From Patescibacteria group bacterium (lineage in GTDB: Bacteria; Patescibacteriota; Patescibacteriia; JAXHNJ01): a stretch of DNA of 64,000 bases. Shown here piece by piece: positions 2,174 through 51,976 of this stretch (position 1 is its first letter; each line of letters starts with the position of its first letter). Below the pieces are notes generated by a model, which saw only the letters and a program-made list of their open reading frames with translations, was not told the origin of the DNA and did no database searches. The position numbers were made by a program, and so were the translations under genes. The stretch is taken from NCBI GenBank assembly GCA_043812155.1, contig JBDRMK010000017.1:77824-141823 (forward strand). The letters run 5' to 3'.

Positions 2174-2848
2174 TTATTCTTCCAAATTAATTTTATTGAT
2201 GTCAACCATTTTTTCCTGGTTATAGGATTCCGGATTATAAGTGTTATAAAACAATTCAATCAGGCTTTGCGTGTCCAAGATTTCGGATCTCAAACCGATA
2301 GAAGAAAGGGCATCCCTCACGTAATCCACCCGTTTGAATATTTCTTCTTTGTATTTCTCAAATTTTTGCTTTTTTAAATGAATGGCCGTGGTCGGCGATA
2401 TTGATTCCACGATCCGGCTGATAAATTTTTTTGGCTTGTCGCCCCGGCCGGAATAGGGAATCGCCGCGTAAAATCTTTTACTCATGATATCAGCCATTTG
2501 GATCAATTCAGCGATATATTGGCGGTATTCAGTCGTCTGCATCCGCAATAATTCATTGGTCTGCTCCTTTTCTATTTTTTTAAGCTGCTCAAGATAGGCG
2601 TCAATATTCAATTTACGCGACTGGATGACGATCTGCAGATTAAAATCAAGGGAATTAATGAATTGGATATAACCCTGAATAACCGCTTCCTGCTCTTCCT
2701 GTGATTTCAAGGAAAAATTTATTGAGGAGACCAAGAGAACGGCCCGGATCGATCCGTCTTTAAGCACGATGCAATTATCCTTGATTTCCAAGATATCAAG
2801 GTATTTTTGGGTGGCCACCGCTTTAGAAGCCGTTCTTATTTTTGGCAT
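2174..2848 (-). CDS. Hypothetical protein, co-directional with and immediately upstream of virB4; possible T4SS accessory protein.
   Basis: 224-aa ORF, 7-bp gap to virB4, no recognisable motif. Role inferred from context only. Confidence 0.45.
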   Translation of the reverse strand: MPKIRTASKAVATQKYLDILEIKDNCIVLKDGSIRAVLLVSSINFSLKSQEEQEAVIQGYIQFINSLDFNLQIVIQSRKLNIDAYLEQLKKIEKEQTNELLRMQTTEYRQYIAELIQMADIMSKRFYAAIPYSGRGDKPKKFISRIVESISPTTAIHLKKQKFEKYKEEIFKRVDYVRDALSSIGLRSEILDTQSLIELFYNTYNPESYNQEKMVDINKINLEE

Positions 2849-17423: not shown

Positions 17424-17436
17424 AATTATTTGATCG

Positions 17437-20400
17437 TTAATGGGCGCAATTAATTTTGGCGTCGCAGGAAGTTATCCGGTAATGGTAGCGGCTGTTGGCT
17501 TTCAAATTTATCAGCTCAAGGCTGTGACTGGTGGTTAAACTCTCATCCTTGACGCAATCTCCCGGCCTGAGACATTCATCATCATCACCGTATAAATGAT
17601 CATAATCGCCTCCTATTTCTATGACGTAGTCCACCCGCGAGGTGGCCGGTTCATCCGTTTCCCAGGTAATGACCGCTTTGCGCTTGCCCGTGATTTCATC
17701 AAGACTGACGTCAACGTTGATCATCGTCAGCACGGGCGGCGCTACGTCATTTATAATAACGAAATTAACCAAATCGCTATCGGTGGAATTACCCGCGCTG
17801 TCATAGGCCGTGGCCTGCAAAGTGTGAGAACCCGGGCTCCGCGTGGTGGTATCAAATAAATAATCGTATGGAAAGCCTGTCCAAGTGACAAAAGGAGAAG
17901 CCTCGCTGTCTAAAATCAGTTCCACTCTGGTGACCCCGGCATTATCAGACGCTTCCACAGTAATATTGTAGCTCGCGGAAATTTCTTCGCCTTCGGTCGG
18001 AGTCAGGATCCTGACCACCGGCGCTTCCAGATCCGGTTCAGCTAAAGTTGTGAAAGAAATGGAAGAAGGACAGCCGGTGGAGGCAAAATTAGACTCTTCC
18101 GCCGTATCCCAAACCCCGATATTCAAATAATAGGTGGTGGAGGGCAGAAGATTTCCAATAAAGACCTCAAACGAAGTATTGATATCCGCCACGCCGATAA
18201 ATGAATGCAAAAGTGTGCAATCAGCATTCAGAAGGACGGCGATATCCGCCTGAGCGGGTTCTGAAGTATCAAAGGTCAAAATAGCGGAGTTATATGAGGG
18301 GTCAATATTGATATTGGAAATGACCGGCGGCTCTTGATCCGCTTCGCACAGGCCCGTATCTTCCGCGCACACAGGCGTGGCCGGCGGACAGGTATATTCG
18401 CATTGCCGGCAATCATTGACTAGTTGCAAGGCCGCATTGCAGTACTGTTTGGTCGTTTCATTACAGCCGCCTCTGGCCGTACCGTCGGCGCACTGTTCCG
18501 CGCAAGCATGGGTGCCGGTAGCATCGCAATAAGGTTCGGTTGACGTCGTCGAACAATCAAATGAACATTCCTGGCAATTATGGCCTACGGTCGGCGATAA
18601 TTGTCCGGGAGTGCAAAAACTGTCGCCTGATAACCGGCAGCAATACTGCGAAGCGGTATTGCATTGGCCAAAATTTGTCCCGTCCGGACAAGCCGGCAAA
18701 CATTGGCCGGTCGCGCTGCAGAAAGGAGTGGCCGCCGGACAGATATAGCCGCACTGCAAACAATTATTCACGAAGTTATTGGCGCTCTGGCAATACTGGG
18801 CGCCTGAACAGCTGCCGACTGGAGTGGTTATGTTGCAGCCTGGCTCACAAAGACCGTTAGAGGTATTACAGAAAATATTGCTGGCCGGACAGGTGTAGCC
18901 GCACTGCAAACAATTATTCACAAAGTTATTGGCGCTCTGGCAATATTGGGTACCCGAACAGCTGCCGACTGGAGTGGTTGAATTGCAGCCCGGCAAACAT
19001 TGGCCGGTCGCGCTGCAGAAAGGGGTGGCGGCCGGACAGATATAGCCGCACTGCAAACAATTGTTCACAAAATTATTGGCGCTCTGGCAATACTGAGTGC
19101 CGAAACAGCTGCCGACTGGGGTGGTTGAATTGCAGCCTTCTTCACACTGGCCGGTTGAGCTGCAGTAGGGAGTGGCAACCGGACAGGTGTAGCCGCATTT
19201 TGTTTGATTTAAAGAACAATTATTGGAAAGCTGTAAACTAATAGGATCGCAGTATAGCAAACCGGCATTACAACTATCTGGACTGGTGCCATCTAAACAT
19301 TTTTCCTCGCAGGCCTGAAGAGTAGTATTGCAGTATGGAGTGGCGGCTGGACAGGTATAGCCGCAGTGCACGCAATTCTTTGTTCCGTCCAAAGGCATTA
19401 AGGTCGTGCCCTGGCAATACTGCTGGCTTAAATTGCAAGAGCCGTCATCCGTGCCATCCGGACAGGCAGCCAGGGTGGTAAAATTTTTATCAGTTGAACA
19501 AATCTCTTGCGCTAAATTATTTTGAGAACAAACAATATAATAATACGAAGTTAATGGCAATAAATTATCAAGAATTAAAGCATGGTCAGTCGTCTGCGTA
19601 AAATCACTTTTATATGAATCGTAGGAAATACCATAATAAACTAAGGTGCCGGCATCGCCGACCGCCCAGAAAGCATTTGCTCCGGCTAAATATACGGCAT
19701 GCAAGGTTCGATTATTGCCACTAATCGAGGTATAATTTTGCCAGTTGGTACCAGCGTTATTGGTGCAGAAAAAACCGCCTGAACCCCCGACCACACAAGC
19801 ATTGTTTATTGAAAGAGCATAAATATTATTAAAAGATAAGCCAGAACCCGTTGTTTGAGAAATCCAAGTGCTGCCACCATTACTAGTCCGGAGAATTAAA
19901 TCGTAAATGCCGGCAATCCAGGCATTATTCGAATCTATCACTGCGATTTTACGAAGAGCATTGGTCGTACCGCTCGTCTGCCTATTCCAAGTGGCACCGC
20001 CGTTAGTCGTCTTAATTATTGTGCCGCTAGTCCCAACCGCCCAACCGTTATTCGCGTCATATACCTCAACTCCAATCAGCATGTTCGAAACTCCGCTAGT
20101 CTCTTTAACCCAGGTTAAACCGCCATCAACTGTATGCAAAACCGTTCCTAAATCACCGACCGCCCAAGCTTGCTGTCCGTCAATAGCGGCAATACTGAGA
20201 AGAGCCACGTTTACACCACTCACCTGCTTACTCCAGGTGGCACCGCCGTTAGTTGTTTTAATAATTGTGCCATTGGCTCCAACCGCCCAAGCAGTGTTTG
20301 CGTCAATAGCTTCCACGTCTAGCAAATTTACCGTAACGCCGCTTGTCTGCGCGGTCCAGAAATTAGAAAAATTAAGATTAGTGTGTAAAATAATTCCAGA

Positions 20401-20700
20401 CTGACCAACTATCCAACCGCTTTTACCGATCATATCCAAGCCAATCAACATATTAGTGCCAGCCACATTTTCTACTGACCAAGCCGGCCCAGCCGAAACA
20501 ACGTAATAAGCCTGGGAATCCCCGTTTTCATCGGTCGGCCAGGAAATTGTGGCGGTGGTCGCTTTTAGATTGCTTACGGCCGGATCACTGGTAATACTGA
20601 TCGCGTTCGCTTGCCGTCCAAGAAAGAAACCAAAGGCGAATATAATTATCAAAGAAACGACTTTTTTTATGGAAAAAATATTTTTAAGCGAGTAGTTCAT
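17437..20700 (-). CDS. Secreted 1087-aa protein with a BNR/Ycf48-like beta-propeller, five tandem Cys-rich ~48-aa repeats and C-terminal Ig-like domains.
   Basis: Signal peptide. Repeated TTNGGATW / TVDGGLTW Asp-box-like motifs. Repeats CLQCGYxCPAATPFCSATGQCLPGCNSTTPVGSCSGTQYCQSANNFVNN. The stop of the upstream gene abuts this start codon. Confidence 0.7.
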   Translation of the reverse strand: MNYSLKNIFSIKKVVSLIIIFAFGFFLGRQANAISITSDPAVSNLKATTATISWPTDENGDSQAYYVVSAGPAWSVENVAGTNMLIGLDMIGKSGWIVGQSGIILHTNLNFSNFWTAQTSGVTVNLLDVEAIDANTAWAVGANGTIIKTTNGGATWSKQVSGVNVALLSIAAIDGQQAWAVGDLGTVLHTVDGGLTWVKETSGVSNMLIGVEVYDANNGWAVGTSGTIIKTTNGGATWNRQTSGTTNALRKIAVIDSNNAWIAGIYDLILRTSNGGSTWISQTTGSGLSFNNIYALSINNACVVGGSGGFFCTNNAGTNWQNYTSISGNNRTLHAVYLAGANAFWAVGDAGTLVYYGISYDSYKSDFTQTTDHALILDNLLPLTSYYYIVCSQNNLAQEICSTDKNFTTLAACPDGTDDGSCNLSQQYCQGTTLMPLDGTKNCVHCGYTCPAATPYCNTTLQACEEKCLDGTSPDSCNAGLLYCDPISLQLSNNCSLNQTKCGYTCPVATPYCSSTGQCEEGCNSTTPVGSCFGTQYCQSANNFVNNCLQCGYICPAATPFCSATGQCLPGCNSTTPVGSCSGTQYCQSANNFVNNCLQCGYTCPASNIFCNTSNGLCEPGCNITTPVGSCSGAQYCQSANNFVNNCLQCGYICPAATPFCSATGQCLPACPDGTNFGQCNTASQYCCRLSGDSFCTPGQLSPTVGHNCQECSFDCSTTSTEPYCDATGTHACAEQCADGTARGGCNETTKQYCNAALQLVNDCRQCEYTCPPATPVCAEDTGLCEADQEPPVISNINIDPSYNSAILTFDTSEPAQADIAVLLNADCTLLHSFIGVADINTSFEVFIGNLLPSTTYYLNIGVWDTAEESNFASTGCPSSISFTTLAEPDLEAPVVRILTPTEGEEISASYNITVEASDNAGVTRVELILDSEASPFVTWTGFPYDYLFDTTTRSPGSHTLQATAYDSAGNSTDSDLVNFVIINDVAPPVLTMINVDVSLDEITGKRKAVITWETDEPATSRVDYVIEIGGDYDHLYGDDDECLRPGDCVKDESLTTSHSLELINLKANSRYHYRITSCDAKINCAH
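18700..19250. repeat. About 3.3 near-identical tandem copies of a 144-147-bp coding repeat inside the 1087-aa gene.
   Basis: Unit ccggacag(a/g)t(a/g)tagccgcactgcaaacaatt...ctgccgactgg(a/g)gtggtt recurs starting near 18737, 18880 and 19027. Confidence 0.7.
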
Positions 20701-23700
20701 TTATTTTCCTCTCATATTCAAGACCGGATTAGAGGTGTCGTTAAAAGGCATGCATCCTTCGGCCTGATTAACCTGGTTGGCGCATTCTTCTTTATTTTCT
20801 TCCGCCATATCTTTTATATAATAATATGAGCGGCAACCCGGCAATCCAGTGGCGGAACAATTACCGCCAGGGCAATCAAGGTCGTTATTGCACATTTGCC
20901 CGTTTCGGTCCCCTCCTTGGCAAACAGTCGGTTGACAACTTTCGTCCACGGGCACGGTGACTCCGTTCTCTTCTACTAGAGCACAACCCGTGCGGCAAGA
21001 AGCGGGGTCAGAAGGATCACGGTATTCATTGCAGCCGCTTTGTTCTTCCGGGCACAACCCTGCCCAGTAGTCGCAAGCGGTCGTGCCGGTGCATTGGGCA
21101 TTGCTGGTGCAGGCAGCGCCCACATTCATTACGCCGCCCCCGCAAAGCGGAGCGACGCAGACACCGCCCGGACAACCGGCATTATCGCTACAAGTTGTGC
21201 CATCGCGCTCTCCGCCTAAACAATAGCGACAATCCGAATTATCAACGCAAGCCACATCGGCGAAAGCCCCGGAGGCGCAGACTTTCACGCAGGCCCGGCC
21301 GGTCGGTATTTTTTCCGGTGGCGGAGTAACATACGGGCATAAAAGATTCGTCCCTAATTTAAACCATTGGTATTCGCCTCCGCCGCTTCCCAGTTTATAC
21401 TCGCAGGTCTTGGAGCGGGGATCCTTGAACCAACTGGTTCCGCCGCCATTAGTATAAGCATATTCCGCGCAGCCATCTTCGGCGGCCAGACAAACAATAG
21501 AAACATCATTTCCCTTTTCATCAGTGTATTGATACTTTTCCGGATCATTAAGCAGGAATTTTGTCTCCCAGGAAACAGGCTCGTCAATCTGATTTAAGGC
21601 GGGAAGACCGAAACTCTGGCAGCCTTTAGCGCTGGCCGGACAAGTTTTGGCCTTGTCATAAACAACCGTTTCAAATGAATCAGCGGGAATAGTAATACCT
21701 CGAACGACCGTGGCAAAAGGATTATGATAATTTTGGGTATTGATCATGGCGGCGCAGCCGATGAATTGAATAGGGCAGAGATGATCGAAAGATTTAATAT
21801 AATGAATGGCGTTTTTAGTATCCTTATAAGCCTGGCAGTTAAGATCACCCGCACCGCAGCTGGTAAAGGTATTTTTGATGATATAAGAGACATCCGCCAC
21901 TTCCTCCAATAAAACATTATCAATATAGAAGGGTCCGTTAAGCTCAAGGGCGATCTGGTCAAAATCCATCATGTCCCGGTCAAAAACCAGCGGCCCCAGA
22001 ACATATTGGTTCCAATCCTGGGTGACACTGACCGGTCCGCTGATGAAGGAAATTATATTATCAGGCACGCCGTTATTATTTTGGATGACCGCGTTATTAA
22101 TCGTCGTGGTGCCGGCCCCGTCCGGTTTCAGCCAGAAAGAAAGCTGGTAATATTGGCCGCTTACGAGTTTTTTCTCTTTCAAGACAGCAGGATCAACCAC
22201 GCTGGTGGCCGTGCTATTACCTGCTACATGCAAAGAATGCTCGGTCGCCCGCAAAGATTCATTGCTGATGCTTCCCGCCTGCCATTCAGTCGCGCCTAAA
22301 GTCGTATCTTCAAAAGTGGCCTGGAAGACTTTGCGGCTGACACTGCCGGTATTGCCTTTATACTCGCGGCAGCCGGCGGCTTTGGCCGGGCAGCTGATGC
22401 TTTCCGATGGGATCAAATAAAATATCTTTGTCTTACCGGCGATAGAATCAATGGTATTGCGGTGCGGATAACATTCAGCCGAAGCTTTTATCACCCGCGA
22501 GCGCAATATATAGTAAACATTGCCCGCGGTATCATAATATTCCGTGCAATCGGGATTAATCTCCATCTCGGCCGCCGTGCAAGCAGCCACCTCTTTTATA
22601 TCAGAACAGGTTGAGCCGGGGCACTGACCATCATTGATACAGACATCGCCAATATTGTCCCCGCCGGCGCAAACGGTCAAATTATCGATGCACACCGGAT
22701 CAGCGCCCACATTCGGCACGGATAAATTAGTGCAGGGAGCATTGGAGGTATTGCTCTTTTTAAGACGATAAGCGGTCAATTGGTAGCCGCGCGTGTCGCT
22801 GCCTTCCCAAGTATAGAAAGTATTGATTTCTGCCGCCTCGGGCTTGACGCACTGGCGGATTTTCGTGTAATAAGCCTTGCCTTCTCCGCCTTTGGCGACA
22901 ATATCCAAATTCGTGTATTCTTCGCAGCCCACGGAAGCGACTTCACAACGCTGGCCGCTGCCGCCAATAAAGTAAACCGGGTCGCGCTCCGGCCGTTCCG
23001 GAATGCTTAAGATCGGCTCTTCCCGGAAAGGCTGGCAACCGACCTTATCCGCCGAACATAAATTGCTGGGGTAAACAACGCCCGGAATAGCCGCTCCCTT
23101 GCCTTTAACCGGCGTGTATTTTTCGCAGCCGACGTCTTTTTCTTCACAGGCGATGCGATTGCTGTTCAAATAAATCTGATTGGTCTTGCCATAGTCTTTA
23201 TAAGCGGAAAGGGTATTTTCCTCCAACTGCATGGCATCAACATAAACATCAACCGCCACTCCGGCGACGGGATCGCTGGCTCTGACGATCAAAATCAGAC
23301 TGTTGGGGGAAACAGGATTTCCGCCTCCGTCTAAAGTAATGTGGTCAACCGTAAAAGTCGTGCTGAATCTTTGCCATTCAGTGGTCAGCGAGATAGGCAT
23401 AGAAACCAGGTAATCTGGGAAAAAACCAACTCCCCCATTTTTCACCACCAGGCGGCTAGTCGTCGTCGCCGCCGTCGCCTTGGCATAAATAGAATAAGTG
23501 AAAGTCCGGTTCAAAACCGGGTAGCCGGTGTCAATTTGATCCGTCGCTAAATATTGGCCGGAATCGCCCGGGCCGCAAGAAGGCAATTCTCTTAATTTCA
23601 AAGCGATCGAACCGGTGTAAGCGTCGGAAACCGCTTCGGCGGTCGCCCCGCAAGTGTTTTCCACAATAATGTCGGTAAAATTATTGCTGACATTATTATC

Positions 23701-26454
23701 AACTTCACCGGTGTAATATTCAAAACTGGAATTCGGGACTAAATTGGTATGGTTGCCCGTCGGGATAAACTCCTGGCAGCCCACGTTGTTTTCCGCGCAT
23801 TCTTTTACATCGCGATCAAAGTGAATTTTATTGCCCGTTGTCTTGGTGCAGGTCCACTGGTTTGTCGTTGTATCAAAATCCGGTTCCTGGCAATACCACT
23901 GACAGCCGGCGTTAGCCGCCGTGCAGCCGTTGATATCCAAGGTTTTTTTAAGATAAGAAACAACCGAGCCATCCGACGCCTTATAACTCTGGCAGGAAGC
24001 GTACTGCCGGTCGCAAGCGTCGCCGTTAAATTTCCAGACGGGTCTTTCTTCAAAACAATAGCCGTATTTAAGGCATTTGCCCTGGCTGTCCTGCTGCAGA
24101 CAAGATTGCTCATTGACGCAAACGTCGCTGTTACGGCTTATCTCCCAGTGGCCGATATCCGGGGTAATATTAGTCGTCGGATCATATTTACAATCCGTTT
24201 TATTATCTCCATTAGTATCTTCATCGCAAATATATTGTTTTAGCTGGATCTCCTCGCCTACGCCTCTTTTTTGGCAATATGTTTCCGGCAATTTTAACAC
24301 CCAGTTAGGATCGATCAAACCGCAGAAAGGCGAGGCATTGGCTTCGGCCTGACAATAAGGTTCCGCCTCACCGACACAGTGCCCGACGATCTGATCGGGC
24401 GTTTCCCGGCAGACAAAACCTTCAGGGCAGACCGGCGTAGTTAAATCACACGCGTCATAACAAGCCTTGCGTCCGCCGTCCGCCTGGATCGTGCAAATTT
24501 GACCGGCGTCGCAATCACTATTATCATCGCAAGAGGGGTACAAAGTAGTATCATAACAATCGCTGTCTCCGCCGCAGGAAATAGATTTATCATTACTGCA
24601 ATATTTTTTGCCGCCGCTTTCGCAGCGTTCCGCTTCCTCAATTAATTTTTGCAGGGTAATATTTTGGGGATGATCCTTAATCCATTTGGCGGCCAGCTCC
24701 CAGCCCACGGGCACGACGCGGTATGTGCGTAAATAGACAATCGAGCGGTAAGAGATGCCTGAATTTAGGCTTGGCTCCCGGCCTTCGGCGTCAAAGCCGA
24801 AAGTCCCGCCGATCAAACCCTTTTCAATCGCTTGTTTTACCGACAGCTCCTGATCAATCGCCGTCTGAAAACCCGAATCAATAATCCCCCTGGCGGTTAA
24901 ATCACCCGCGGAAACCGGGTCCTGGCCGGGACTGCCCAAGGTAAAATTAAGTTTGGAAATCGAGGCGAACTGAAGCTTGGCCGCGGCCACGCCTGACGGC
25001 TGAACACTGCCAAAAACCAGCTGGCTTAATTTTGAGCCCCCCGAAGGGCCTTTGCAGCCGGCCGCCGAAGGATTAAGGGCGCACTTGCCGCCGAAAAATC
25101 TCTGGGTCAACCGGTCAATTAAAGTATTGGTAAATATCGTGATAAGATCCGCTTTAAGCGAACCGGTCCGCACTTCTTCCGGTCTCGTGGCCGCGCTTTG
25201 CGTATCCTCTAAGCGGTTTTGCACTGATTCTCTAGGGGCAATAATAGAAACCCCCAATTTATCGGTCAGGGAACTGACCGAATCTGACGACGCAATTACC
25301 TGCGCCGCGGAATAATCTTTCTGCGTTTTTATTTCTTCCAGATTCAAAACTTTCAGAACCTTGCCGATATCATTCTGCTCCGATTCCAGGTAAAGATTGA
25401 TCGTGCCGCCCACTAATTTTTGGTTGGCAAGAACGCCATTTTTCGCGTCCGTAACTTTGGCGAAATTTTTAAAAATTTCATTCGCGGTGCACCGGGAGGT
25501 TCTTATTCCGCCTTTGCAGTTTTTTAAGCAGATCTGCAGTTCGCTTTGCAAACCTTTCATTTCGTTGATATAAAAACGCTGGACAGTGGCAATACAAAGT
25601 TGAAGATTTTCCCGGGTCAAAGGTATCTTTGTCCATTTATCCCTTTCTTCATCGGTATAATATCCTGTTGGCTGACAGTAAACACCGGGCGGAGTAGAAA
25701 GACCAGGACCTTGTTCGCAAGCAATCGGGCAGGGAAAATATCCATCACTATGCCTATCAATATTATCGAGAACTCTAAGCGAACCCTCATTATCATTATC
25801 AAGTGCGGTTAAATAAGGAATACTGCTGTAGGGGATAATCATGCTTGCCTTTCCAGTTTTCGGATCAATCGCCATTAAATTATACCGCAGGTCGTCTACC
25901 GCGGGCTTATTTACAATTTCGCATTTCCGGTTGCAATAGTCCAATGGATTGTCACTTATCAAATCGCCGATAACCATAGTTAAGGCCATTTGCGTGGGCA
26001 ATTGCCCGGCGCAAACATCAATGCCAAAAACCTCTTCTCCCATGGAATAAAGGAAATCGCCGGCTGAGGCCTGGCTCAATTTCGTCCAATAATGGGGGTC
26101 AGTCATAAAAAGCGGCTTCTGGCCGGTGCCGGCCGAAGCGATCCAGACCGCCGTATCCTGAACCACCCGGCCCAAAAAAGTGCGGAGGGAATTTTTAAAA
26201 GCGACATCAGTCGCCACTGTAAAAGCTTCTTTAGCTTTTTCTTTAACTTTATCAAAAGCTTTCTGGGCTTGAGCCCAGGCTTTTTGCCAGAAACCTTGGC
26301 CTTCAAGAACAGGGGCGGAAACCACGCCGCCAACCGCGTTCGCCGGCCTAGGTTCAAAAGCCAATAAAAAAAGAAAAACAAACGAAATAAAAAACAGGAG
26401 CAAAAAACTACTGGCTAATATTTTTTTATTTATACTCTTTTTTTCGACGGGCAT
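20701..26454 (-). CDS. Giant 1917-aa cysteine-rich surface/secreted protein with two CBM4/9-like beta-sandwich domains and an N-terminal membrane anchor.
   Basis: N-terminal TM (LLLFFISFVFLFLLAF). Dense Cys content. Two segments resemble carbohydrate-binding-module folds (around TEWQRFSTTFTV and NGPFYIDNVLLEE). Confidence 0.7.
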   Translation of the reverse strand: MPVEKKSINKKILASSFLLLFFISFVFLFLLAFEPRPANAVGGVVSAPVLEGQGFWQKAWAQAQKAFDKVKEKAKEAFTVATDVAFKNSLRTFLGRVVQDTAVWIASAGTGQKPLFMTDPHYWTKLSQASAGDFLYSMGEEVFGIDVCAGQLPTQMALTMVIGDLISDNPLDYCNRKCEIVNKPAVDDLRYNLMAIDPKTGKASMIIPYSSIPYLTALDNDNEGSLRVLDNIDRHSDGYFPCPIACEQGPGLSTPPGVYCQPTGYYTDEERDKWTKIPLTRENLQLCIATVQRFYINEMKGLQSELQICLKNCKGGIRTSRCTANEIFKNFAKVTDAKNGVLANQKLVGGTINLYLESEQNDIGKVLKVLNLEEIKTQKDYSAAQVIASSDSVSSLTDKLGVSIIAPRESVQNRLEDTQSAATRPEEVRTGSLKADLITIFTNTLIDRLTQRFFGGKCALNPSAAGCKGPSGGSKLSQLVFGSVQPSGVAAAKLQFASISKLNFTLGSPGQDPVSAGDLTARGIIDSGFQTAIDQELSVKQAIEKGLIGGTFGFDAEGREPSLNSGISYRSIVYLRTYRVVPVGWELAAKWIKDHPQNITLQKLIEEAERCESGGKKYCSNDKSISCGGDSDCYDTTLYPSCDDNSDCDAGQICTIQADGGRKACYDACDLTTPVCPEGFVCRETPDQIVGHCVGEAEPYCQAEANASPFCGLIDPNWVLKLPETYCQKRGVGEEIQLKQYICDEDTNGDNKTDCKYDPTTNITPDIGHWEISRNSDVCVNEQSCLQQDSQGKCLKYGYCFEERPVWKFNGDACDRQYASCQSYKASDGSVVSYLKKTLDINGCTAANAGCQWYCQEPDFDTTTNQWTCTKTTGNKIHFDRDVKECAENNVGCQEFIPTGNHTNLVPNSSFEYYTGEVDNNVSNNFTDIIVENTCGATAEAVSDAYTGSIALKLRELPSCGPGDSGQYLATDQIDTGYPVLNRTFTYSIYAKATAATTTSRLVVKNGGVGFFPDYLVSMPISLTTEWQRFSTTFTVDHITLDGGGNPVSPNSLILIVRASDPVAGVAVDVYVDAMQLEENTLSAYKDYGKTNQIYLNSNRIACEEKDVGCEKYTPVKGKGAAIPGVVYPSNLCSADKVGCQPFREEPILSIPERPERDPVYFIGGSGQRCEVASVGCEEYTNLDIVAKGGEGKAYYTKIRQCVKPEAAEINTFYTWEGSDTRGYQLTAYRLKKSNTSNAPCTNLSVPNVGADPVCIDNLTVCAGGDNIGDVCINDGQCPGSTCSDIKEVAACTAAEMEINPDCTEYYDTAGNVYYILRSRVIKASAECYPHRNTIDSIAGKTKIFYLIPSESISCPAKAAGCREYKGNTGSVSRKVFQATFEDTTLGATEWQAGSISNESLRATEHSLHVAGNSTATSVVDPAVLKEKKLVSGQYYQLSFWLKPDGAGTTTINNAVIQNNNGVPDNIISFISGPVSVTQDWNQYVLGPLVFDRDMMDFDQIALELNGPFYIDNVLLEEVADVSYIIKNTFTSCGAGDLNCQAYKDTKNAIHYIKSFDHLCPIQFIGCAAMINTQNYHNPFATVVRGITIPADSFETVVYDKAKTCPASAKGCQSFGLPALNQIDEPVSWETKFLLNDPEKYQYTDEKGNDVSIVCLAAEDGCAEYAYTNGGGTSWFKDPRSKTCEYKLGSGGGEYQWFKLGTNLLCPYVTPPPEKIPTGRACVKVCASGAFADVACVDNSDCRYCLGGERDGTTCSDNAGCPGGVCVAPLCGGGVMNVGAACTSNAQCTGTTACDYWAGLCPEEQSGCNEYRDPSDPASCRTGCALVEENGVTVPVDESCQPTVCQGGDRNGQMCNNDLDCPGGNCSATGLPGCRSYYYIKDMAEENKEECANQVNQAEGCMPFNDTSNPVLNMRGK

Positions 26455-31293: not shown

Positions 31294-31935
31294 TTATTTT
31301 TCCGCCTGAATAAACCAACGGCCATAATTACCCATTTTTATTTTCACTTTTTTAAATTTTAAAAAAAATCTTGCGATCTCTTTTTTAGTGAAAAAACTGT
31401 GCGGCAATCCTTTTTCCGGACCGGTTAAAGGAATATAGGTACCGGCGGACACCATTCGCTTTTTTTGAAAATGGTGCCACTCATTTATTTGCTGACAATC
31501 CGGCAAGGTAATCAGAGTTTTTCCGTTATTCCGTAAAGCCCGGAATATTCTATTTACTAATTTTCTAATTTGCGCTTTTTTGCCGTGCTGGAGAGTGTTA
31601 AACGAAAAAATAAAATCATATTTACCCGGCGGAATTTTATACTTAAACATATCGGCCTTTATTATCCTGGATTTATCCTTCAATAATTTTTTAGTCATTT
31701 TTACCGCCGATAGACTGGAGTCAATCCCGTCGGTTGCAAAGCCCAATGTTTGCAGATATTTGAGGTATCTTCCGTCACCACAGCCGATGTCCAAAGCGGA
31801 TTTTGAAGTAAATTTTGACCGTTTAATAAATTTTTTAAATGGCGGGTATATTTCGTAGCCGAGAGAAGCATAGGCCGGCCCGCCTTTCAAATAATTTTTA
31901 TAAATCTTATCCCAAGTGGTCAAATTAAACGACAA
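31294..31935 (-). CDS. Class I SAM-dependent methyltransferase.
   Basis: ALDIGCGDGRY motif I. Confidence 0.65.
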   Translation of the reverse strand: MSFNLTTWDKIYKNYLKGGPAYASLGYEIYPPFKKFIKRSKFTSKSALDIGCGDGRYLKYLQTLGFATDGIDSSLSAVKMTKKLLKDKSRIIKADMFKYKIPPGKYDFIFSFNTLQHGKKAQIRKLVNRIFRALRNNGKTLITLPDCQQINEWHHFQKKRMVSAGTYIPLTGPEKGLPHSFFTKKEIARFFLKFKKVKIKMGNYGRWFIQAEK

Positions 31936-34633
31936 AATTAATTAATCTGCCTTTAACAAATATTACTTTCTTTGGCTCGCCTATAACGTACTTTCTCACT
32001 TTTTCAGAACTTAAAGCTTTTTCCTTTGCTTCACTTTCCGAAATATCCGCCGGTAATCTTAAACGCTCGCGCAGTTTGCCATTTACCTGGATGATAAATT
32101 CCACTTCTTCGTCTTTAACTAGTTTGGAGTCATAAGAAGGCCATTTTTCCTTGAAAATAGATTCTTTATGCCCTAATTTCTCCCAAAGTTCCTCGGCCAA
32201 ATGCGGGGCAAAAGGCGATAATAACTTACAATAAATTTCCCGTTCATCTTTTTTTGAACTATTTTCTTCAATATTACCAAGATTTATATAAATATTTATC
32301 AATTTCATTAAAGCTGAAACAGCCGTATTAAAGTGCAGATTATCAATATCTTCTGTTACTTTTTTAACCGTTTTGTTTAAGCCATATTTTTTTGTTTCTA
32401 AATCTTGAGTACCAAAATTCGTCTGGAAATGTTTTTGTATCCTATCTAAAAATCTTTTCATTCCTCTTAAACCGTCTGTGTTCCAGTTGATCGCCTGGTC
32501 AAACGGCCCCATGAACATTTCGTAAAGCCGGACGGCGTCCGCCCCGAATTCCTTGATAATGACATCGGGATTGACCACGTTGCCGAATGATTTGGACATT
32601 TTCCGGCCGTCTTCGGCCAAGACCATGCCATGAGAAACCCGACGTTTATATGGTTCATCAGTCGGCACTAATTTCAAATCATATAAGGCTTTGTACCAAA
32701 ATCTTGAATACAATAGATGTAGAGTCGTGTGTTCCATCCCGCCGTTGTACAAATCCACCGGCAACCAGTGCTTCATATTTTTCATGTCCGCGAATTTCTT
32801 GTCATTATGCGGATCGCAATAGCGGATGAAATACCAGTTTGAACCGGCCCAGTTAGGCATGGTATCAGTCTCTCTTTTCGCCTGGCCGCCGCACTTCGGG
32901 CATTTCACATTCACCCATTCGGTAATTTTCGCTAGTGGCGATTCGCCTGTATTCGTCGGCTCATATTCTTTGACTTCGGGTAATTCCACCGGCAGATCTT
33001 TTTCCGGCACCGGCACGACTCCGCATTTTTCGCAATGGATCAAGGGAATCGGCTCGCCCCAGTAATGCTGACGAGAAAAAATCCAGTCGCGGAGCTTGTA
33101 ATTGACGGCGGCTTTGGCCAAAGAAAAAGATTGGTTCGGAAAAAATGGCAGGATCTCCGGCAAAACAGTGATATTCCCGTTCGATTTGCTAAAGTGATGT
33201 TTGCCAGAAAAAAGATGAAATTCCGCTTCAGGCAAATTCTTTTTATAGTATTCTACGCTTTCGACGGGAATAAATGGATCATTATCCGAAAACATGATAA
33301 TAAATCGCTCCGCCAAAGCGCGTATTTTTTTCCAATTAAAAAGTCCTGATTCATTCATGGCCTCAACCGCTTTCCAGTCAGCCGTCGGATGCGAGTGTCT
33401 TAATTCCGTCCACTTCTGCCAGGGATTTGTCGGCGCCACTAATATTACGGTATGAACATTTTTACCTAATAATTGCAGATGATACAACATGGCAGGGCAA
33501 CCAAGACTATGACCTACTAATACCGATTGTTCGTTAATCTGCTCGTCAAACCGAGCCAATTGTTCGTTCCAAACGGCCATCGTGGGATGATCAGTATCGG
33601 ACAAAGAAGGTACTATTACCTCCCATCCCTTCTGACCAAGTTCTTTTTTCAACCAGGGAAACCAATTTTCTTTTTCATGCCCGCCAATACCATGAACAAC
33701 AAGACAGGTTTTAGTTTTCTGGCCGTCGGTTGAATTCAAATCTTTGATAATAATTTCTTTAAACTTAACTGAATCCATGCCATTATACTTACCGGAATTA
33801 ATCATTATCCCATCGCCGGCGTAAATTTTTCCTCTAATAAATTTGTCAAAAACATAATGATGCAATGGATCTTTTACTTTTTGATCCGCTTCTTTTTCGC
33901 TCAGCCATATAACTTTAAATTTTTCATTATCTTTTCGGTCAGTTATTCCTTTTTCTTCATCCATAAGTTCAAAATAAAGCCCCACCACCTCAATTTCCCG
34001 ATCTACATTTTTAGAGTGGGCCGTATAATGATGGTGGATTTTTTCTGACTGGGCAATAAATTTTAAATTTTTATAACCCGTTTCTTCTTTAATTTCACGT
34101 TTTGCACAAGCAACAGGATCTTCTCCTTTTTCCAAACCGCCACCAATAAGCAGATAACCCCCAAGCCCAGAGCCCCAATTTAGGGCTAAAATCCGGCCAT
34201 TTTTGGGATTTTTCACCAGAGCGACGATACTGCGGCGAAATTCTTCATTCTTCTTCGGAGTTCCGGTAACCGGCTCAATGACGTTAATTACCGGCAAATC
34301 GTATTTTTTCGCAAATTCAAAATCCCTTTCATCGTGCCCCGGCACCGCCATTATGGCGCCGGTGCCATAACCCGATAAAACATAATCCGCGACAAAAATG
34401 GGAATTTCTTCATTATTCACGGGATTAATAGCTTTGATTCCTTTTAATTCCACTCCAGTTTTTTCTTTTGATTCGGCGCGCTCTAAATCCGATTTCGCTT
34501 TGGCTTTTTTAATATATCCTTCCACCTCCTGGCGATTAGCGATTTGCGGCAAGAAATCGGCGATCAATTCATGCTCCGGCGACAAAACCATGTAAGTCAC
34601 GCCGTAGAGAGTGTCAGGTCTTGTTGTAAAAAC
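31925..34633 (-). CDS. leuS: Leucyl-tRNA synthetase, C-terminal 900 aa, with NUDIX and YdeN-type serine-hydrolase domains inserted in the CP1 region.
   Basis: YGTGAIMAVPGHDERDFEFA, NYKLRDWIFSRQHYWGEPIP and KMSKS motifs. The frame extends upstream of the annotated GTG (34600) to include VFTTRPDTLYGVTYMVLSPEH. Inserted NUDIX box GGGLEKGEDPVACAKREIKEETGY. Inserted hydrolase motifs VHGIGG, LVGHSLGC, FSDNDP and GKHHF. Confidence 0.85.
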   Translation of the reverse strand, partial: VFTTRPDTLYGVTYMVLSPEHELIADFLPQIANRQEVEGYIKKAKAKSDLERAESKEKTGVELKGIKAINPVNNEEIPIFVADYVLSGYGTGAIMAVPGHDERDFEFAKKYDLPVINVIEPVTGTPKKNEEFRRSIVALVKNPKNGRILALNWGSGLGGYLLIGGGLEKGEDPVACAKREIKEETGYKNLKFIAQSEKIHHHYTAHSKNVDREIEVVGLYFELMDEEKGITDRKDNEKFKVIWLSEKEADQKVKDPLHHYVFDKFIRGKIYAGDGIMINSGKYNGMDSVKFKEIIIKDLNSTDGQKTKTCLVVHGIGGHEKENWFPWLKKELGQKGWEVIVPSLSDTDHPTMAVWNEQLARFDEQINEQSVLVGHSLGCPAMLYHLQLLGKNVHTVILVAPTNPWQKWTELRHSHPTADWKAVEAMNESGLFNWKKIRALAERFIIMFSDNDPFIPVESVEYYKKNLPEAEFHLFSGKHHFSKSNGNITVLPEILPFFPNQSFSLAKAAVNYKLRDWIFSRQHYWGEPIPLIHCEKCGVVPVPEKDLPVELPEVKEYEPTNTGESPLAKITEWVNVKCPKCGGQAKRETDTMPNWAGSNWYFIRYCDPHNDKKFADMKNMKHWLPVDLYNGGMEHTTLHLLYSRFWYKALYDLKLVPTDEPYKRRVSHGMVLAEDGRKMSKSFGNVVNPDVIIKEFGADAVRLYEMFMGPFDQAINWNTDGLRGMKRFLDRIQKHFQTNFGTQDLETKKYGLNKTVKKVTEDIDNLHFNTAVSALMKLINIYINLGNIEENSSKKDEREIYCKLLSPFAPHLAEELWEKLGHKESIFKEKWPSYDSKLVKDEEVEFIIQVNGKLRERLRLPADISESEAKEKALSSEKVRKYVIGEPKKVIFVKGRLINFVV

Positions 34634-34634
34634 T

Positions 34635-35369
34635 TCAATGTGTGGTTTCGAATTTATAATTTCGGATTTCTAATTTTATATTAGCGCCCTCCGACCTTCC
34701 AATCCAGTCAATCTGCTGCTTTTTTATTTTTTCCAAAAAATCAACCTTATCCAAATCTTTGATTAAGCGGTCAGCATATTCAGTAATTTTAAAAAGCCAC
34801 TGCTTTTGATTTTTCTTGGTCACTTCTGCCCCGCATCTTTCGCACTTGCCCCCGACCACTTCTTCATTGGCTAAACCGATCTTGCAGGCTGGACACCAAT
34901 TGATCGGCATTTCTTTCTGGTAAACCAAACCGGCTTTGTATAATTGCAAGAATATCCACTGCGTCCATTTGTAATATTTCGGGTCGGAAGTATCAATCGC
35001 TCTTTCCCAGTCAAAAGAAAAACCCATCGCTTTCAACTGGCGGGTGAAATTGGCAATATTCTCCCGGGTTATATCTTGCGGTTTTCTTTTGACCTTTATG
35101 GCGTAATTTTCCGTGGGCAAACCGAAAGAATCAAAACCGATGGGGAATAAAACGTTTTCCCCTTCCATTCTTTTTTTTCGGGCCATAATATCAATTGCCG
35201 TGTAGGAACGAAGATGCCCCACATGAAGACCGTCGCCGGAAACATAGGGGAATTCTATCAGGCAATAATACTTATTCAGGGATTTATCATTGGCTAAAAA
35301 TAATTTTTGCTTTTGCCAAAAATCCTGCCATTTTTTTTCAATTTTACCCGGGCTAAAACCGTCGTTCAT
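34635..35369 (-). CDS. leuS: Leucyl-tRNA synthetase, N-terminal 244-aa catalytic portion, separated from the rest by an apparent frameshift.
   Basis: HIGH motif (HVGHLRSY), zinc-binding CPAC...CERCG, and [10 protein letters not shown] immediately before the expected editing domain. A TGA stop at 34635-34637 interrupts the frame. Confidence 0.8.
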
Positions 35370-51584: not shown

Positions 51585-51656
51585 AGCCCCTGTAGTTCAA
51601 CGGATAGAACAACAGCCTTCTAAGCTGTGGATACAGGTTCAATTCCTGTCGGGGGT
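51585..51656 (+). tRNA. tRNA-Arg (anticodon TCT).
   Basis: Hand-folded cloverleaf: acceptor GCCCCTG / CGGGGGT with two G-U pairs; D-arm GTTC-AACGGATA-GAAC; anticodon arm ACAGC-CTTCTAA-GCTGT; T-arm ACAGG-TTCAATT-CCTGT; discriminator A. Confidence 0.75.
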
Positions 51657-51788
51657 AAATAACGAAATAATCATGGTGCCTGTGGTGTAGTGGTTCGCAC
51701 ACGACTCTGCCCGCCCCGCTCGCCAAAGACAAATTAAAATATTATTTCTATTATATAAATTAAAAACTTAATTGAAGGGTTGCAGAAG

Positions 51789-51861
51789 GGTGACTATAGT
51801 GTAGTAGTTAGCACAGAGCCCTGTGGAGGCTTTAGCGAGGGTGCAAATCCCTCTAGTCACC
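51789..51861 (+). tRNA. tRNA-His (anticodon GTG) with an encoded G-1 paired to discriminator C73.
   Basis: Acceptor GTGACTA / TAGTCAC plus G-1:C73; D-arm GTGT-AGTAGTTA-GCAC; anticodon arm GAGCC-CTGTGGA-GGCTT; T-arm GAGGG-TGCAAAT-CCCTC. Confidence 0.75.
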
Positions 51862-51976
51862 CTTCTGCATCTCTAACATTTCTATGGCTCGCTTTGGCGG
51901 GCCGGGGTGGCAAGGGTTCTGCGCCAAAGGCGCATCAGCCTCTGGCTGAAATTCCCATCAGTTCCCCACCAAAAAT

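What the first reader, a model, noticed from the sequence alone, without database searches (positions are those of the whole stretch)
31925..35369. Leucyl-tRNA synthetase carrying inserted NUDIX hydrolase and YdeN/RBBP9-type serine hydrolase domains at its editing (CP1) region
The LeuRS core motifs align normally around the insert. HIGH, the Zn finger, WIGRSEG, TTRPDT, YGTGAIMAVPGHDERD, NYKLRDW...YWGEPIP and KMSKS are all present. About 440 extra residues sit where E. coli LeuRS has only short loops.

The first insertion is a complete ~145-aa NUDIX domain. It has a perfect Nudix box, GGGLEKGEDPVACAKREIKEETGY, and follows PVINVIEP, before the conserved GxGxMxNSG segment.

The second is a ~190-aa alpha/beta serine hydrolase of the YdeN/RBBP9 type, with VHGIGG, LVGHSLGC, FSDNDP and GKHHF. 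It lies between the end of the editing-domain region and the re-entry motif AVNYKLRDW.

Both are in frame in one continuous 891-aa ORF, so this is not an assembly chimera. Two hydrolytic modules fused to an aaRS editing region suggest added proofreading or clearance chemistry, for example of aminoacyl-adenylates, Ap4A-type by-products or mischarged esters. I am not aware of this as a described LeuRS architecture.
Basis: partly seen in the sequence, partly recalled or inferred. Interest (0 to 1): 0.85.

Follow-up and report, generated by a model that had tools for sequence, protein, structure and literature searches.

The report
LeuRS with nested NUDIX and esterase domains
This is a real leucyl-tRNA synthetase gene from a candidate-phyla-radiation (Patescibacteria) bacterium with two extra, apparently active hydrolase enzymes built into its proofreading region; the design is common in that lineage and I found no paper on it, and in this assembly the gene is also broken by a one-base frameshift.

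Summary
Minus-strand 31925-35369 encodes a bacterial-type LeuRS carrying a NUDIX domain (Pfam E 1e-14, perfect Nudix box) inside the CP1 editing domain. A YdeN/RBBP9-type Ser-Asp-His hydrolase (Pfam E 1.2e-17; PDB 1uxo E 1.7e-14) sits between the last CP1 helix and the AVNYKLRDW return strand.

Corrections:
- The gene is not one ORF. The first 244 aa are in another frame, and a +1 shift is needed at about 34655-34669, in a low-complexity linker. A syntenic relative (74% identical) has an intact 1147-aa gene.
- The inserts add about 330 residues, not 440.

The architecture is not unique. Among the window protein and its 119 best LeuRS relatives, 65 carry NUDIX, 20 the hydrolase, 31 both and 4 neither. 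NUDIX always sits at the same CP1 loop, while the hydrolase occurs at four or more sites. Catalytic residues of both inserts and the LeuRS synthetic and editing motifs are conserved. A full-length AlphaFold model of the relative is confident (pLDDT 90).

I found no paper describing this. GenBank calls the large piece "alpha/beta fold hydrolase". Function is inferred only: most likely active accessory hydrolases tethered to a normal LeuRS. Merely hosted passenger enzymes are the main rival.

The parts
34635..35369 (-). LeuRS N-terminal ORF (244 aa). It holds the first half of the Rossmann fold with HVGH (35214-35225), the ZN1 CPAC/CERC motifs (34833-34895) and WIGRSEG (34686-34706). It ends at TGA 34637-34635. 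GenBank MFH1366980.1.
34655..34669 (-). Frameshift zone in the low-complexity linker between WIGRSEG and TTRPDT. Frame A reads ...[13 protein letters not shown], and frame B opens after TAG 34672-34670 and reads [20 protein letters not shown]. Removing one A of CGAAATT (34664-34658) restores a 1147-aa ORF. Relative to L001 the window lacks 32 nt here.
34247..34654 (-). CP1 editing domain, N-terminal part, with TTRPDT (34627-34610) and YGTGAIMAVPGHDERD (34369-34322). The editing-site residues are intact.
33827..34237 (-). Nested NUDIX domain (about 137 aa) in a CP1 surface loop, equivalent to about T. thermophilus 362-385. Nudix box at 34144-34073.
33725..33826 (-). CP1 editing domain, C-terminal remainder (GDGIMINSGKYNG... 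and the last helix).
33140..33712 (-). Nested YdeN/RBBP9-type alpha/beta serine hydrolase (about 190 aa). Oxyanion HG at 33697-33680, nucleophile GHSLG at 33514-33500, acid SDNDP at 33289-33275, His in KHHF at 33202-33191.
31925..33109 (-). Return to the LeuRS core: AVNYKLRDW, YWGEPIP, ZN2 CEKC/CPKC, KMSKS (32602-32588), anticodon-binding domain and C-terminal domain. Stop codon at 31927-31925.

Best explanation
**What it is (shown).** This is the single leuS locus of the window, from a Patescibacteria MAG. It is a bacterial-type class Ia LeuRS with two complete foreign enzyme domains nested in surface loops.
- A minimal NUDIX pyrophosphohydrolase sits inside the CP1 editing domain.
- A YdeN/RBBP9-family Ser-Asp-His alpha/beta hydrolase sits between the last CP1 helix and the beta-strand that returns to the catalytic core.
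- The synthetic motifs (HVGH, KMSKS) and the editing motifs (TTRPDT, GHDERD) are intact.
- Both inserts keep their catalytic residues across dozens to a hundred relatives.

**How it works (inferred).** The product is most likely a trifunctional protein.
- It charges tRNA-Leu and edits through CP1 as usual.
- The two add-on domains are active hydrolases held next to the CP1 hinge, where they clear small by-products or harmful analogues.
- The NUDIX domain would act on a nucleoside-diphosphate-X compound, for example Ap4A-type dinucleotides or damaged NTPs.
- The serine hydrolase would act on an acyl or aminoacyl ester or amide.
- They add to CP1 editing; they do not replace it.

**The frameshift.** In this assembly the gene is interrupted by a one-base frame error in a repeat-like, disordered linker. 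I think this is most likely an assembly or consensus indel or a very recent mutation, not a designed feature.
For: **Domains and motifs**
- Pfam and NCBIfam hits and motif positions.
- The hydrolase matches B. subtilis YdeN 1uxo (E 1.7e-14) and RBBP9 (E 9e-9).
- An AlphaFold model of the window's NUDIX insert has pLDDT 94 and matches NUDIX structures.
- The full-length model of the 74%-identical relative P0002 has pLDDT 90.2 and pTM 0.77, with both inserts well folded. Its core matches T. thermophilus and E. coli LeuRS at TM about 0.8.

**Catalytic residue conservation**
- Nudix box: R 95, E 100, E 98, E 100 and G 100 of 100 sequences.
- Hydrolase: Ser 53/53, Asp 47 (plus 5 Glu) of 53, His 50/53.
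- LeuRS editing and synthetic residues are at least 90% conserved in all 120 aligned sequences.

**Selection.** Between the window and L001, pN is far below pS in both inserts: 0.18 against 0.80 and 0.25 against 0.79.

**Host specificity**
- 105 of the 150 best cluster representatives for this NUDIX subfamily are LeuRS or LeuRS fragments, and I saw no other host protein.
- 44 of 66 GTDB species loci have the NUDIX flanked by LeuRS sequence.
- The hydrolase occurs at four or more different LeuRS sites and sometimes twice in one protein.

**Family chemistry**
- RBBP9, the one biochemically studied family member I found, forms acyl-enzyme adducts with single hydrophobic amino acids (Leu/Ile, Phe, Tyr, Trp). 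It needs a free alpha-amine, and the authors say it likely cleaves amide, ester or thioester bonds to them (PMC8866121).
- A paper identifying RBBP9 as a valacyclovir-activating enzyme is listed in the references of PMC7730578.

**Frameshift**
- Of the 44 GTDB loci with a LeuRS-embedded NUDIX, every one that includes this linker reads through it in one frame.
- Other window ORFs of up to 1917 aa are intact.
Against: - There is no direct evidence for any substrate.
- The NUDIX subfamily cannot be called. The best PDB sequence hit is an Ap4A hydrolase at only E 0.003, and Foldseek hits are generic at 15-24% identity.
- The RBBP9 pocket residues Y99, L103 and E108 are not conserved in the embedded hydrolases, which have their own lid segment.
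- Insert-free LeuRS exist among close relatives (P0020, P0056, P0101), so the inserts are dispensable for LeuRS itself.
- Unrelated domains occupy the same loops elsewhere, which fits simple tolerance of insertion.
- Free-standing hydrolase homologues show no conserved linkage to leuS.
- The frameshift could mean the gene is inactive in this organism.
Confidence: 0.45

Rival explanations
1. Passenger model. The NUDIX and hydrolase domains are ordinary housekeeping enzymes (nucleotide-pool sanitation, a general esterase or aminopeptidase). They became lodged in structurally permissive LeuRS loops and are kept for their own sake. LeuRS only provides expression and a scaffold, and there is no functional coupling with aminoacylation or editing.
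For: - Many unrelated domains occupy the same loops in relatives: Ham1/ITPase, ASCH, PD-(D/E)XK_3, DUF559 and a nucleotidyltransferase-like domain.
- Closely related LeuRS lack the inserts.
- The inserts evolve faster than the core: 57-70% identity against 84-90%.
- Free-standing homologues of both domains exist.
- Every insertion site I could map falls in a loop, and the one at the start of CP1 is poorly ordered in the model (pLDDT about 50).
Against: - Among the hits examined, LeuRS is the only host found for this NUDIX subfamily.
- The hydrolase recurs at four or more LeuRS sites and in double copies.
- The association is retained across LeuRS cores that have diverged to about 45-60% identity.
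- This pattern is more than expected from a neutral accident, though a single capture followed by relocation within the gene could produce it.
Confidence: 0.35
2. Dead or artefactual gene. The locus is a decaying pseudogene, or a misassembled chimera of leuS with NUDIX and hydrolase genes.
For: The reading frame is broken at about 34655-34669. GenBank annotates two separate proteins.
Against: - There is only one frame break in 3.4 kb, and the 891-aa ORF has no other defect.
- All catalytic motifs are intact.
- pN is far below pS in every segment.
- The same architecture, with the same neighbouring genes, occurs as one intact ORF in L001 and in dozens of other contigs.
- GC content shows no discontinuity at the insert borders.
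- No second leuS is present in the window.
Confidence: 0.07
3. Functional split or recoded LeuRS. The N-terminal 244-aa fragment and a C-terminal fragment are made separately and assemble, as in fragment complementation of class I synthetases or the natural two-subunit Aquifex LeuRS (my own knowledge). Alternatively, the ribosome shifts +1 in the linker.
For: - The break lies exactly in a linker that is disordered in the model (pLDDT about 50). The same linker is a hotspot that tolerates 120-330-aa insertions in relatives.
- The assembly otherwise looks clean.
- An AAA-U context (UAU AAA UUC) and an AUUGA overlap of the stop codon with an AUU codon are present.
Against: - No canonical start codon with a Shine-Dalgarno sequence precedes TTRPDT. 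The only ATG/GTG/TTG start is GTG 34600, which would delete the TTRPDT strand.
- I recognised no known +1 frameshift signal.
- No other LeuRS I examined is broken in this linker.
- Promoter-like matches in the region are at chance level.
Confidence: 0.06

Closest known systems
Canonical bacterial LeuRS (T. thermophilus 2BTE/1H3N, E. coli 4AQ7)
   Same: - Same fold and domain order: Foldseek TM about 0.8 and E down to 1e-76, phmmer E 2e-213 for the insert-free relative.
- HIGH-type and KMSKS motifs, ZN1 and ZN2 cysteines, the CP1 editing domain with TTRPDT and GHDxRD, the anticodon-binding domain and the C-terminal domain are all present.
   Different: - Two extra catalytic domains (about 330 aa) are nested in CP1 and at the CP1-to-core junction.
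- The leucine-specific domain is absent.
- The gene is frameshifted in this assembly.
B. subtilis YdeN (1UXO) and human RBBP9 (2QS9, 9FCR), Pfam PF06821 Ser_hydrolase
   Same: - Same family by sequence (E 1.7e-14 and 9e-9).
- Same size, about 190 aa.
- The Ser-Asp-His triad aligns.
- RBBP9 removes single hydrophobic amino acids that carry a free alpha-amine (PMC8866121).
   Different: - Here the domain is embedded in another enzyme rather than free-standing.
- The RBBP9 specificity residues Y99, L103 and E108 are not conserved.
- The embedded forms share an extra lid segment, APTNPxQ...W...DW.
- The substrate is unknown.
Small free-standing NUDIX hydrolases (A. aeolicus Ap4A hydrolase 3I7U, human Ap4A hydrolase 4IJX, E. 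coli RppH, NudI, MutT-like 2AZW)
   Same: NUDIX fold at TM 0.6-0.78, a complete Nudix box, and a similar size of about 135 aa.
   Different: Identity is only 15-24%, and no subfamily-specific match was found. The domain is inserted in the LeuRS editing domain.
Isoleucyl-tRNA ligase with an N-acetyltransferase domain (NCBIfam NF040702, ileS_w_GNAT)
   Same: It is another class Ia synthetase family that NCBI recognises as carrying an added enzyme domain (listed).
   Different: The synthetase and the added fold are both different. I did not examine that family here.
Nested domain-insertion architectures surveyed in PMC13114784
   Same: This is a domain within a domain within a domain: NUDIX in CP1 in the Rossmann fold.
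   Different: That survey found the LeuRS editing domain (PF13603) only ever as an insert, with zero instances as a host across 213 events. Here it is the host.

Membership tests
Bacterial-type leucyl-tRNA synthetase (TIGR00396 leuS_bact) | Whole-protein HMM score above the curated cut-off | tested here: met
   The 891-aa piece alone scores 576.6 bits against a cut-off of 548.4. The N-terminal piece scores 343.9 bits.
Bacterial-type leucyl-tRNA synthetase (TIGR00396 leuS_bact) | Class I signature motifs HIGH and KMSKS | tested here: met
   HVGH is at aa 49 and KMSKS at aa 923 of the reconstructed protein.
Bacterial-type leucyl-tRNA synthetase (TIGR00396 leuS_bact) | CP1 editing domain with the threonine-rich TTRPDT and GTG...HDxRD editing-site motifs | tested here: met
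   Pfam PF13603 at 6.6e-43. The motifs are present and at least 90% conserved in relatives.
Bacterial-type leucyl-tRNA synthetase (TIGR00396 leuS_bact) | One uninterrupted coding sequence | tested here: not met
   There are two ORFs in different frames, and a +1 shift is needed at about 34655-34669. The orthologue in L001 is uninterrupted.
Bacterial-type leucyl-tRNA synthetase (TIGR00396 leuS_bact) | Leucylation of tRNA-Leu and hydrolysis of mischarged tRNA-Leu | not testable with these tools
   This needs biochemistry.
NUDIX hydrolase superfamily (PF00293) | Nudix box GX5EX7REUXEEXGU | tested here: met
   G-GLEKG-E-DPVACAK-RE-I-K-EE-T-G-Y at 34144-34073. The key residues are 95-100% conserved in 100 embedded homologues.
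NUDIX hydrolase superfamily (PF00293) | Alpha/beta/alpha NUDIX fold | tested here: met
   AlphaFold model with pLDDT 94.3. Foldseek gives probability 1.00 against many NUDIX structures.
Ap4A-hydrolase subfamily of NUDIX | Specific similarity to characterised Ap4A hydrolases beyond the general fold | tested here: inconclusive
   The best PDB sequence hit is 3i7u, but only at E 0.003. By structure it ranks among MutT, NudI, RppH and ADP-ribose pyrophosphatase hits. No NCBIfam equivalog was matched.
Ser_hydrolase / YdeN / RBBP9 family (PF06821) | HMM score above the gathering cut-off, and similarity to YdeN and RBBP9 | tested here: met
   64.8 bits against a cut-off of 22. 1uxo at E 1.7e-14 and 2qs9 at E 9e-9.
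Ser_hydrolase / YdeN / RBBP9 family (PF06821) | Ser-Asp-His catalytic triad with a GHSxG nucleophile elbow | tested here: met
   GHSLG, SDNDP and KHHF align with RBBP9 S75, D138 and H165.
Ser_hydrolase / YdeN / RBBP9 family (PF06821) | RBBP9-type amino-acid pocket (Y99, L103, E108 alpha-amine anchor) | tested here: not met
   These columns are variable in the embedded domains (T/V/A; Q/I/M; D/K/E). RBBP9 substrate preference therefore cannot be transferred.
Intein or other self-excising insert | Hint/intein splicing domain or homing-endonuclease signature at the insert borders | tested here: not met
   Pfam finds no intein or Hint family in the 891-aa ORF. Each insert is a complete enzyme fold. 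I did not check the conserved intein junction residues by hand.

The most novel reading that the evidence does not exclude
Patescibacteria LeuRS may be an evolutionary docking platform for hydrolases that act on its own chemistry. In this reading:
- The RBBP9-like serine hydrolase is a third, esterase-type aminoacyl-hydrolysis site. It would deacylate mischarged tRNA ends or aminoacyl-nucleotide esters, or destroy leucyl-adenylate-mimicking toxins. The MccF and MccE enzymes that protect against microcin C would be the analogy (my own knowledge).
- The NUDIX domain, and Ham1 in relatives, removes nucleotide by-products at the source.

This would be a new class of cis-acting quality-control or self-protection modules in an aminoacyl-tRNA synthetase.
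Probability: 0.2. Interest if true: 0.85.

Novelty: new variant of a known kind. Interest (0 to 1): 0.6.

Why it matters
- Added catalytic domains in aminoacyl-tRNA synthetases are mostly known from eukaryotes. They usually sit at the termini (my own knowledge).
- Here an essential bacterial synthetase carries complete foreign enzymes nested inside its editing domain. This recurs across a large radiation of ultra-small bacteria, and catalytic residues are conserved.
- A recent survey found the LeuRS editing domain only ever as an insert, never as a host (PMC13114784). This case contradicts that.
- It offers a natural map of LeuRS loops that tolerate insertions of 120-330 aa.
- If the inserts act on LeuRS-linked substrates, it would reveal a new layer of translational quality control or toxin resistance in organisms with minimal genomes.
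- Practically, the GenBank annotation hides the organism's LeuRS. It is split into "alpha/beta fold hydrolase" and "class I tRNA ligase family protein". This could make the genome look as though it lacks leuS.

Tried and rejected
- **Foldseek against afdb50.** The library was not available.
- **Joint model of NUDIX plus hydrolase.** Alignment A2 aligned the hydrolase against the LeuRS core, so I did not use it. I modelled the NUDIX insert alone instead.
- **The search for related loci with a NUDIX profile.** The single-protein scan worked.
- **NUDIX substrate subfamily.** Sequence, NCBIfam and structure searches gave only generic matches.
- **Transfer of RBBP9 substrate specificity.** Rejected, because the pocket residues are not conserved.
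- **Guilt by association from free-standing hydrolase homologues.** One sits beside hisS, relA/spoT and an HD-domain gene. Two others are in unrelated contexts. There is no conserved link to leuS.
- **Foreign-DNA signature.** GC content of the inserts lies within the range of the gene.
- **RNA leader or other RNA element.** Rfam found only two tRNAs elsewhere in the window.
- **Internal promoter for a C-terminal fragment.** Promoter-like matches are at chance level.
- **Programmed +1 frameshift.** I recognised no known signal in the 32-nt zone, so I give it low probability.
- **Second leuS copy in the window.** None found.
- **Other split genes as a sign of a poor assembly.** None found among 16 ORFs checked against Pfam.
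- **Active-site distances.** Model coordinates cannot be reached from the tools.

Full report
**1. What is at the coordinates**

On the minus strand there are two adjacent ORFs: 35369..34635 (244 aa) and 34600..31925 (891 aa from an internal GTG). Pfam hits on the 891-aa ORF, in order:

| Domain | Residues | E-value |
|---|---|---|
| LeuRS editing domain PF13603 | 1-118 | 6.6e-43 |
| NUDIX PF00293 | 122-245 | 1e-14 |
| Ser_hydrolase PF06821 | 300-475 | 1.2e-17 |
| tRNA-synt_1 | 502-706 | 9.1e-26 |
| Anticodon_1 | 741-855 | 3.8e-25 |

- The 244-aa ORF is the first half of a class I catalytic domain.
- NCBIfam TIGR00396 (bacterial leuS) scores 576.6 bits on the large piece, above its 548.4 cut-off, and 343.9 bits on the small piece.
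- The inserted domains are therefore real and far beyond chance.

**2.

- WIGRSEG (34706-34686) and TTRPDT (34627-34610) are in different frames. tblastn with an insert-free relative shows frame -3 for residues 1-239 and frame -1 for the rest.
- The switch must occur between the frame-B stop TAG (34672-34670) and the frame-A stop TGA (34637-34635).
- Homology narrows it to about 34666-34655 (...KLEI | [17 protein letters not shown]).
- Deleting one A in CGAAATT (34664-34658) gives a 1147-aa ORF with no stop codon.
- A syntenic contig, L001 (Logan SRR26784438), has the same flanking LysM/M23 peptidase, methyltransferase, nitroreductase and Sua5 genes. It encodes an intact 1147-aa orthologue, P0002, 74% identical over the 891-aa ORF.
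- Relative to L001 the window lacks 32 nt in a low-complexity, CAAAT-rich linker (QITSTKSQINSKLQISNPKR). In the AlphaFold model of P0002, only residues 246-249, in this linker, fall below pLDDT 50.
- The rest of the window has uninterrupted ORFs of 1917, 1527, 1350, 1280, 1087 and 1054 aa. I found no other split gene among the 16 ORFs I checked.
- Of the 44 GTDB loci with a LeuRS-embedded NUDIX, every one that includes this linker reads through it in one frame.
- I cannot tell a local assembly or consensus indel from a real recent mutation without reads. A functional split gene or programmed +1 shift is possible but has no positive support:
  - no start codon with a Shine-Dalgarno sequence precedes TTRPDT;
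  - I recognised no known shift signal;
  - promoter-like matches are at chance level.
- GenBank carries the two pieces as MFH1366980.1 "class I tRNA ligase family protein" and MFH1366979.1 "alpha/beta fold hydrolase".

**3. Anatomy of the inserts**

The closest insert-free relative is P0020 (820 aa; 75-85% identical across the core segments). Against it, the reconstructed protein has about 327 extra residues, not about 440. I mapped the sites onto T. thermophilus LeuRS.

- **NUDIX.** It sits in a CP1 surface loop (about Tth 362-385, between PVINVIEP and GDGIMINSG), so it is a domain nested inside a domain that is itself an insertion in the Rossmann fold.
- **Hydrolase.** It sits in the loop between the last CP1 helix and the beta-strand that returns to the core (about Tth 407-413, before AVNYKLRDW).
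- **NUDIX details.** The Nudix box fits GX5EX7REUXEEXGU exactly. The AlphaFold model of the window's own NUDIX segment has pLDDT 94.3. It matches NUDIX structures generically (MutT-like 2azw, NudI, Ap4A hydrolases 4ijx and 3i7u, RppH, MutT1) at 15-24% identity. By sequence the best PDB hit is the A. aeolicus Ap4A hydrolase, at only E 0.003. No substrate subfamily can be assigned.
- **Hydrolase details.** It matches B. subtilis YdeN (1uxo, E 1.7e-14) and human RBBP9 (E 9e-9), and its Ser, Asp and His align with RBBP9 S75, D138 and H165.
- **Full-length model.** The model of P0002 is confident (pLDDT 90.2, pTM 0.77). Its core superposes on T. thermophilus and E. coli LeuRS at TM about 0.8.

**4. 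It is a lineage-wide, dynamic architecture**

- The 119 best database relatives of the 891-aa ORF that I aligned with the window protein are LeuRS, and most sources that give a name place them in Patescibacteria. Counting the window protein, the 120 sequences break down as follows:

  | Inserts | Count |
  |---|---|
  | NUDIX only | 65 |
  | NUDIX plus hydrolase | 31 |
  | Hydrolase only | 20 |
  | Neither | 4 |

- The main NUDIX copy always sits at the same CP1 loop. Extra copies occur near the start of CP1 in a few proteins.
- The hydrolase occurs at four or more places:
  - between WIGRSEG and TTRPDT, which is the very linker that is frameshifted here;
  - in the CP1 loop around P0020 residue 380-409;
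  - at the window's site;
  - just after the ZN2 CxxCG knuckle (for example P0003).

  Some proteins carry two copies.
- A rough neighbour-joining tree groups the embedded hydrolases largely by insertion site and apart from most free-standing 180-200-aa homologues. This suggests few captures followed by vertical descent or relocation within the gene. The tree has no support values.
- Other domains nested in the same loops include Ham1/ITPase, ASCH, PD-(D/E)XK_3, DUF559 and a nucleotidyltransferase-like domain.
- An exhaustive HMMER search of 1.84 billion cluster representatives with the window's NUDIX insert found 376 clusters at E up to 1e-3. Of the best 150, 105 are LeuRS or LeuRS fragments. 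The other 45 have no LeuRS match: most are 100-300 aa, and about two-thirds are under 200 aa. I saw no other host protein.
- A pattern scan of GTDB species genomes found 44 loci with the NUDIX flanked by LeuRS sequence. Their labels include Kaiserbacteria, Zambryskibacteria, Moraniibacteriota, Paceibacterota, Parcubacteria, Saccharibacteria and Gracilibacteria. Some MAGs carry other labels that I did not verify.

**5. Are the inserts functional?**

- Catalytic positions are almost invariant. In the Nudix box, R, E, E, E and G are kept in 95, 100, 98, 100 and 100 of 100 sequences. In the hydrolase, Ser is kept in 53/53, Asp in 47 (plus 5 Glu) of 53, and His in 50/53.
- Between the window and L001 the inserts are more diverged than the core (70% and 57% identity against 84-90%) but are clearly under purifying selection (pN 0.18 and 0.25 against pS about 0.8).
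- The higher pS in the inserts than in the core (0.8 against 0.5-0.6) is unexplained. It may reflect faster evolution or exchange of the insert by recombination.
- LeuRS synthetic and editing residues are at least 90% conserved across all 120 aligned sequences. The inserts therefore add to the enzyme and do not replace CP1 editing.

**6. Mechanism**

*Shown.* This is a canonical LeuRS chassis with two catalytically intact hydrolase folds. They are tethered within CP1 and at the junction where CP1 returns to the core.

*Inferred.* They are active accessory hydrolases.

For a link to LeuRS chemistry:
- LeuRS is the only host I saw for this NUDIX subfamily.
- The hydrolase is placed repeatedly, and sometimes in duplicate, within LeuRS.
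- RBBP9, the one biochemically studied family member I found, traps single hydrophobic amino acids (Leu/Ile, Phe, Tyr, Trp) on its catalytic residue. It needs a free alpha-amine and is thought to cleave amide, ester or thioester bonds (PMC8866121).
- A paper identifying RBBP9 as a valacyclovir-activating enzyme is cited in PMC7730578. Valacyclovir is a valyl ester of a nucleoside analogue (my own knowledge).

Against a link:
- The RBBP9 pocket residues are not conserved in the embedded domains, which have their own lid segment.
- Insert-free close relatives exist.
- Unrelated domains use the same loops.
- Free homologues show no leuS linkage.
- NUDIX enzymes do not normally cleave the acyl-phosphate bond of an aminoacyl-adenylate (my own knowledge).

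My estimates: about 0.45 for locally acting clean-up or quality-control modules, about 0.35 for pure passengers, and the remainder for pseudogene, chimera, or split or recoded gene scenarios.

**7. Comparison with what is known, and novelty**

- The locus meets the membership tests for bacterial LeuRS (except for an uninterrupted ORF), for NUDIX and for PF06821. It does not meet an RBBP9-type pocket test, and the Ap4A-hydrolase test is inconclusive.
- Five literature searches (four aimed at this architecture; one broader) found no description of LeuRS with nested NUDIX or hydrolase domains.
- A 2026 survey of domain insertions reports the LeuRS editing domain as insertion-exclusive, with zero host instances (PMC13114784). 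These proteins contradict that.
- The sequences themselves have been public for years under generic names.
- I rate it a new variant of a known kind: an ordinary enzyme in an undescribed, widespread nested architecture of unknown function.

Noticed in passing
window 34600-34700; L001 6640-6760: The linker between WIGRSEG and TTRPDT is low-complexity DNA with CAAAT/GAAAT-like short repeats. It differs by a 32-nt indel between two close relatives, is disordered in the model, and is also the place where relatives carry 120-330-aa inserted domains. It looks like an indel and insertion hotspot.
   Followed up: partly
relatives P0003, P0005, P0016, P0023, P0032, P0034: The YdeN-type hydrolase sits at different LeuRS positions in different lineages: before TTRPDT, in the CP1 loop, before AVNYKLRDW, and after the ZN2 CxxCG. 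Some proteins carry two copies.
   Followed up: partly
relatives P0151, P0154, P0075, P0120: Some LeuRS carry two or three NUDIX copies, with the extra ones near P0020 residue 208-252.
   Followed up: no
relatives P0011, P0029, P0076, P0015, P0091, P0083, P0105, P0113: Other domains are nested in LeuRS loops: Ham1/ITPase-like, ASCH, PD-(D/E)XK_3, DUF559/REase and a nucleotidyltransferase-like domain. There is also an unassigned domain of about 125 aa after the ZN2 knuckle (P0015, P0018, P0086, P0118).
   Followed up: partly
window 31925-35369: GenBank annotates the locus as two proteins: MFH1366979.1 'alpha/beta fold hydrolase' (911 aa, whose first residue corresponds to an ATT codon) and MFH1366980.1 'class I tRNA ligase family protein'. 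No product is named leucine--tRNA ligase.
   Followed up: yes
L001 9447-10049 versus window 31925-31935: The relative has an extra 200-aa gene with no Pfam hit between leuS and the methyltransferase gene. In the window the two genes abut or overlap.
   Followed up: no
window NUDIX 33827-34237 and hydrolase 33140-33712 versus L001: Synonymous differences are saturated in the inserts (pS about 0.8) but not in the LeuRS core (0.5-0.6). This may reflect faster evolution or exchange of the insert by recombination.
   Followed up: no
L014-L020, L007, L008, L009, L023: Several GTDB representative MAGs with a NUDIX-bearing LeuRS are labelled Bacilli, Gammaproteobacteria, Bdellovibrionales, Nanoarchaeia or Woesearchaeota. 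Either the labels are wrong or the architecture extends beyond Patescibacteria. The 'Bacilli' loci have 25-28% GC.
   Followed up: no
L032 about 4423-4427: In another species the LeuRS tblastn match changes frame at about P0020 residue 568/569. This may be a frameshift in a different part of the gene.
   Followed up: no
L002 and L003 877-5561: One free-standing YdeN-type hydrolase lies directly after relA/spoT-like, hisS-like and HD-domain genes on the same strand.
   Followed up: no
window 9679-26454 (minus strand): Four consecutive giant ORFs (1054, 1527, 1087 and 1917 aa) have only fn3, purple-acid-phosphatase-N, BNR/YCF48-like, Big_7 and CBM hits. They are probably surface or secreted proteins.
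   Followed up: partly
window 55400-59242 (minus strand): A large single-chain PurL (FGAR amidotransferase, 1280 aa) is present. It is a de novo purine biosynthesis gene, which is not typical of Patescibacteria (my own knowledge).
   Followed up: no
window 184-2259 (minus strand): A TraG/VirB4-like P-loop ATPase (691 aa), suggesting a type IV secretion or conjugation-like system.
   Followed up: no
window 51586-51862 (plus strand): tRNA-Arg(TCT) and tRNA-His(GTG) lie next to each other. They are the only Rfam matches in the window.
   Followed up: yes
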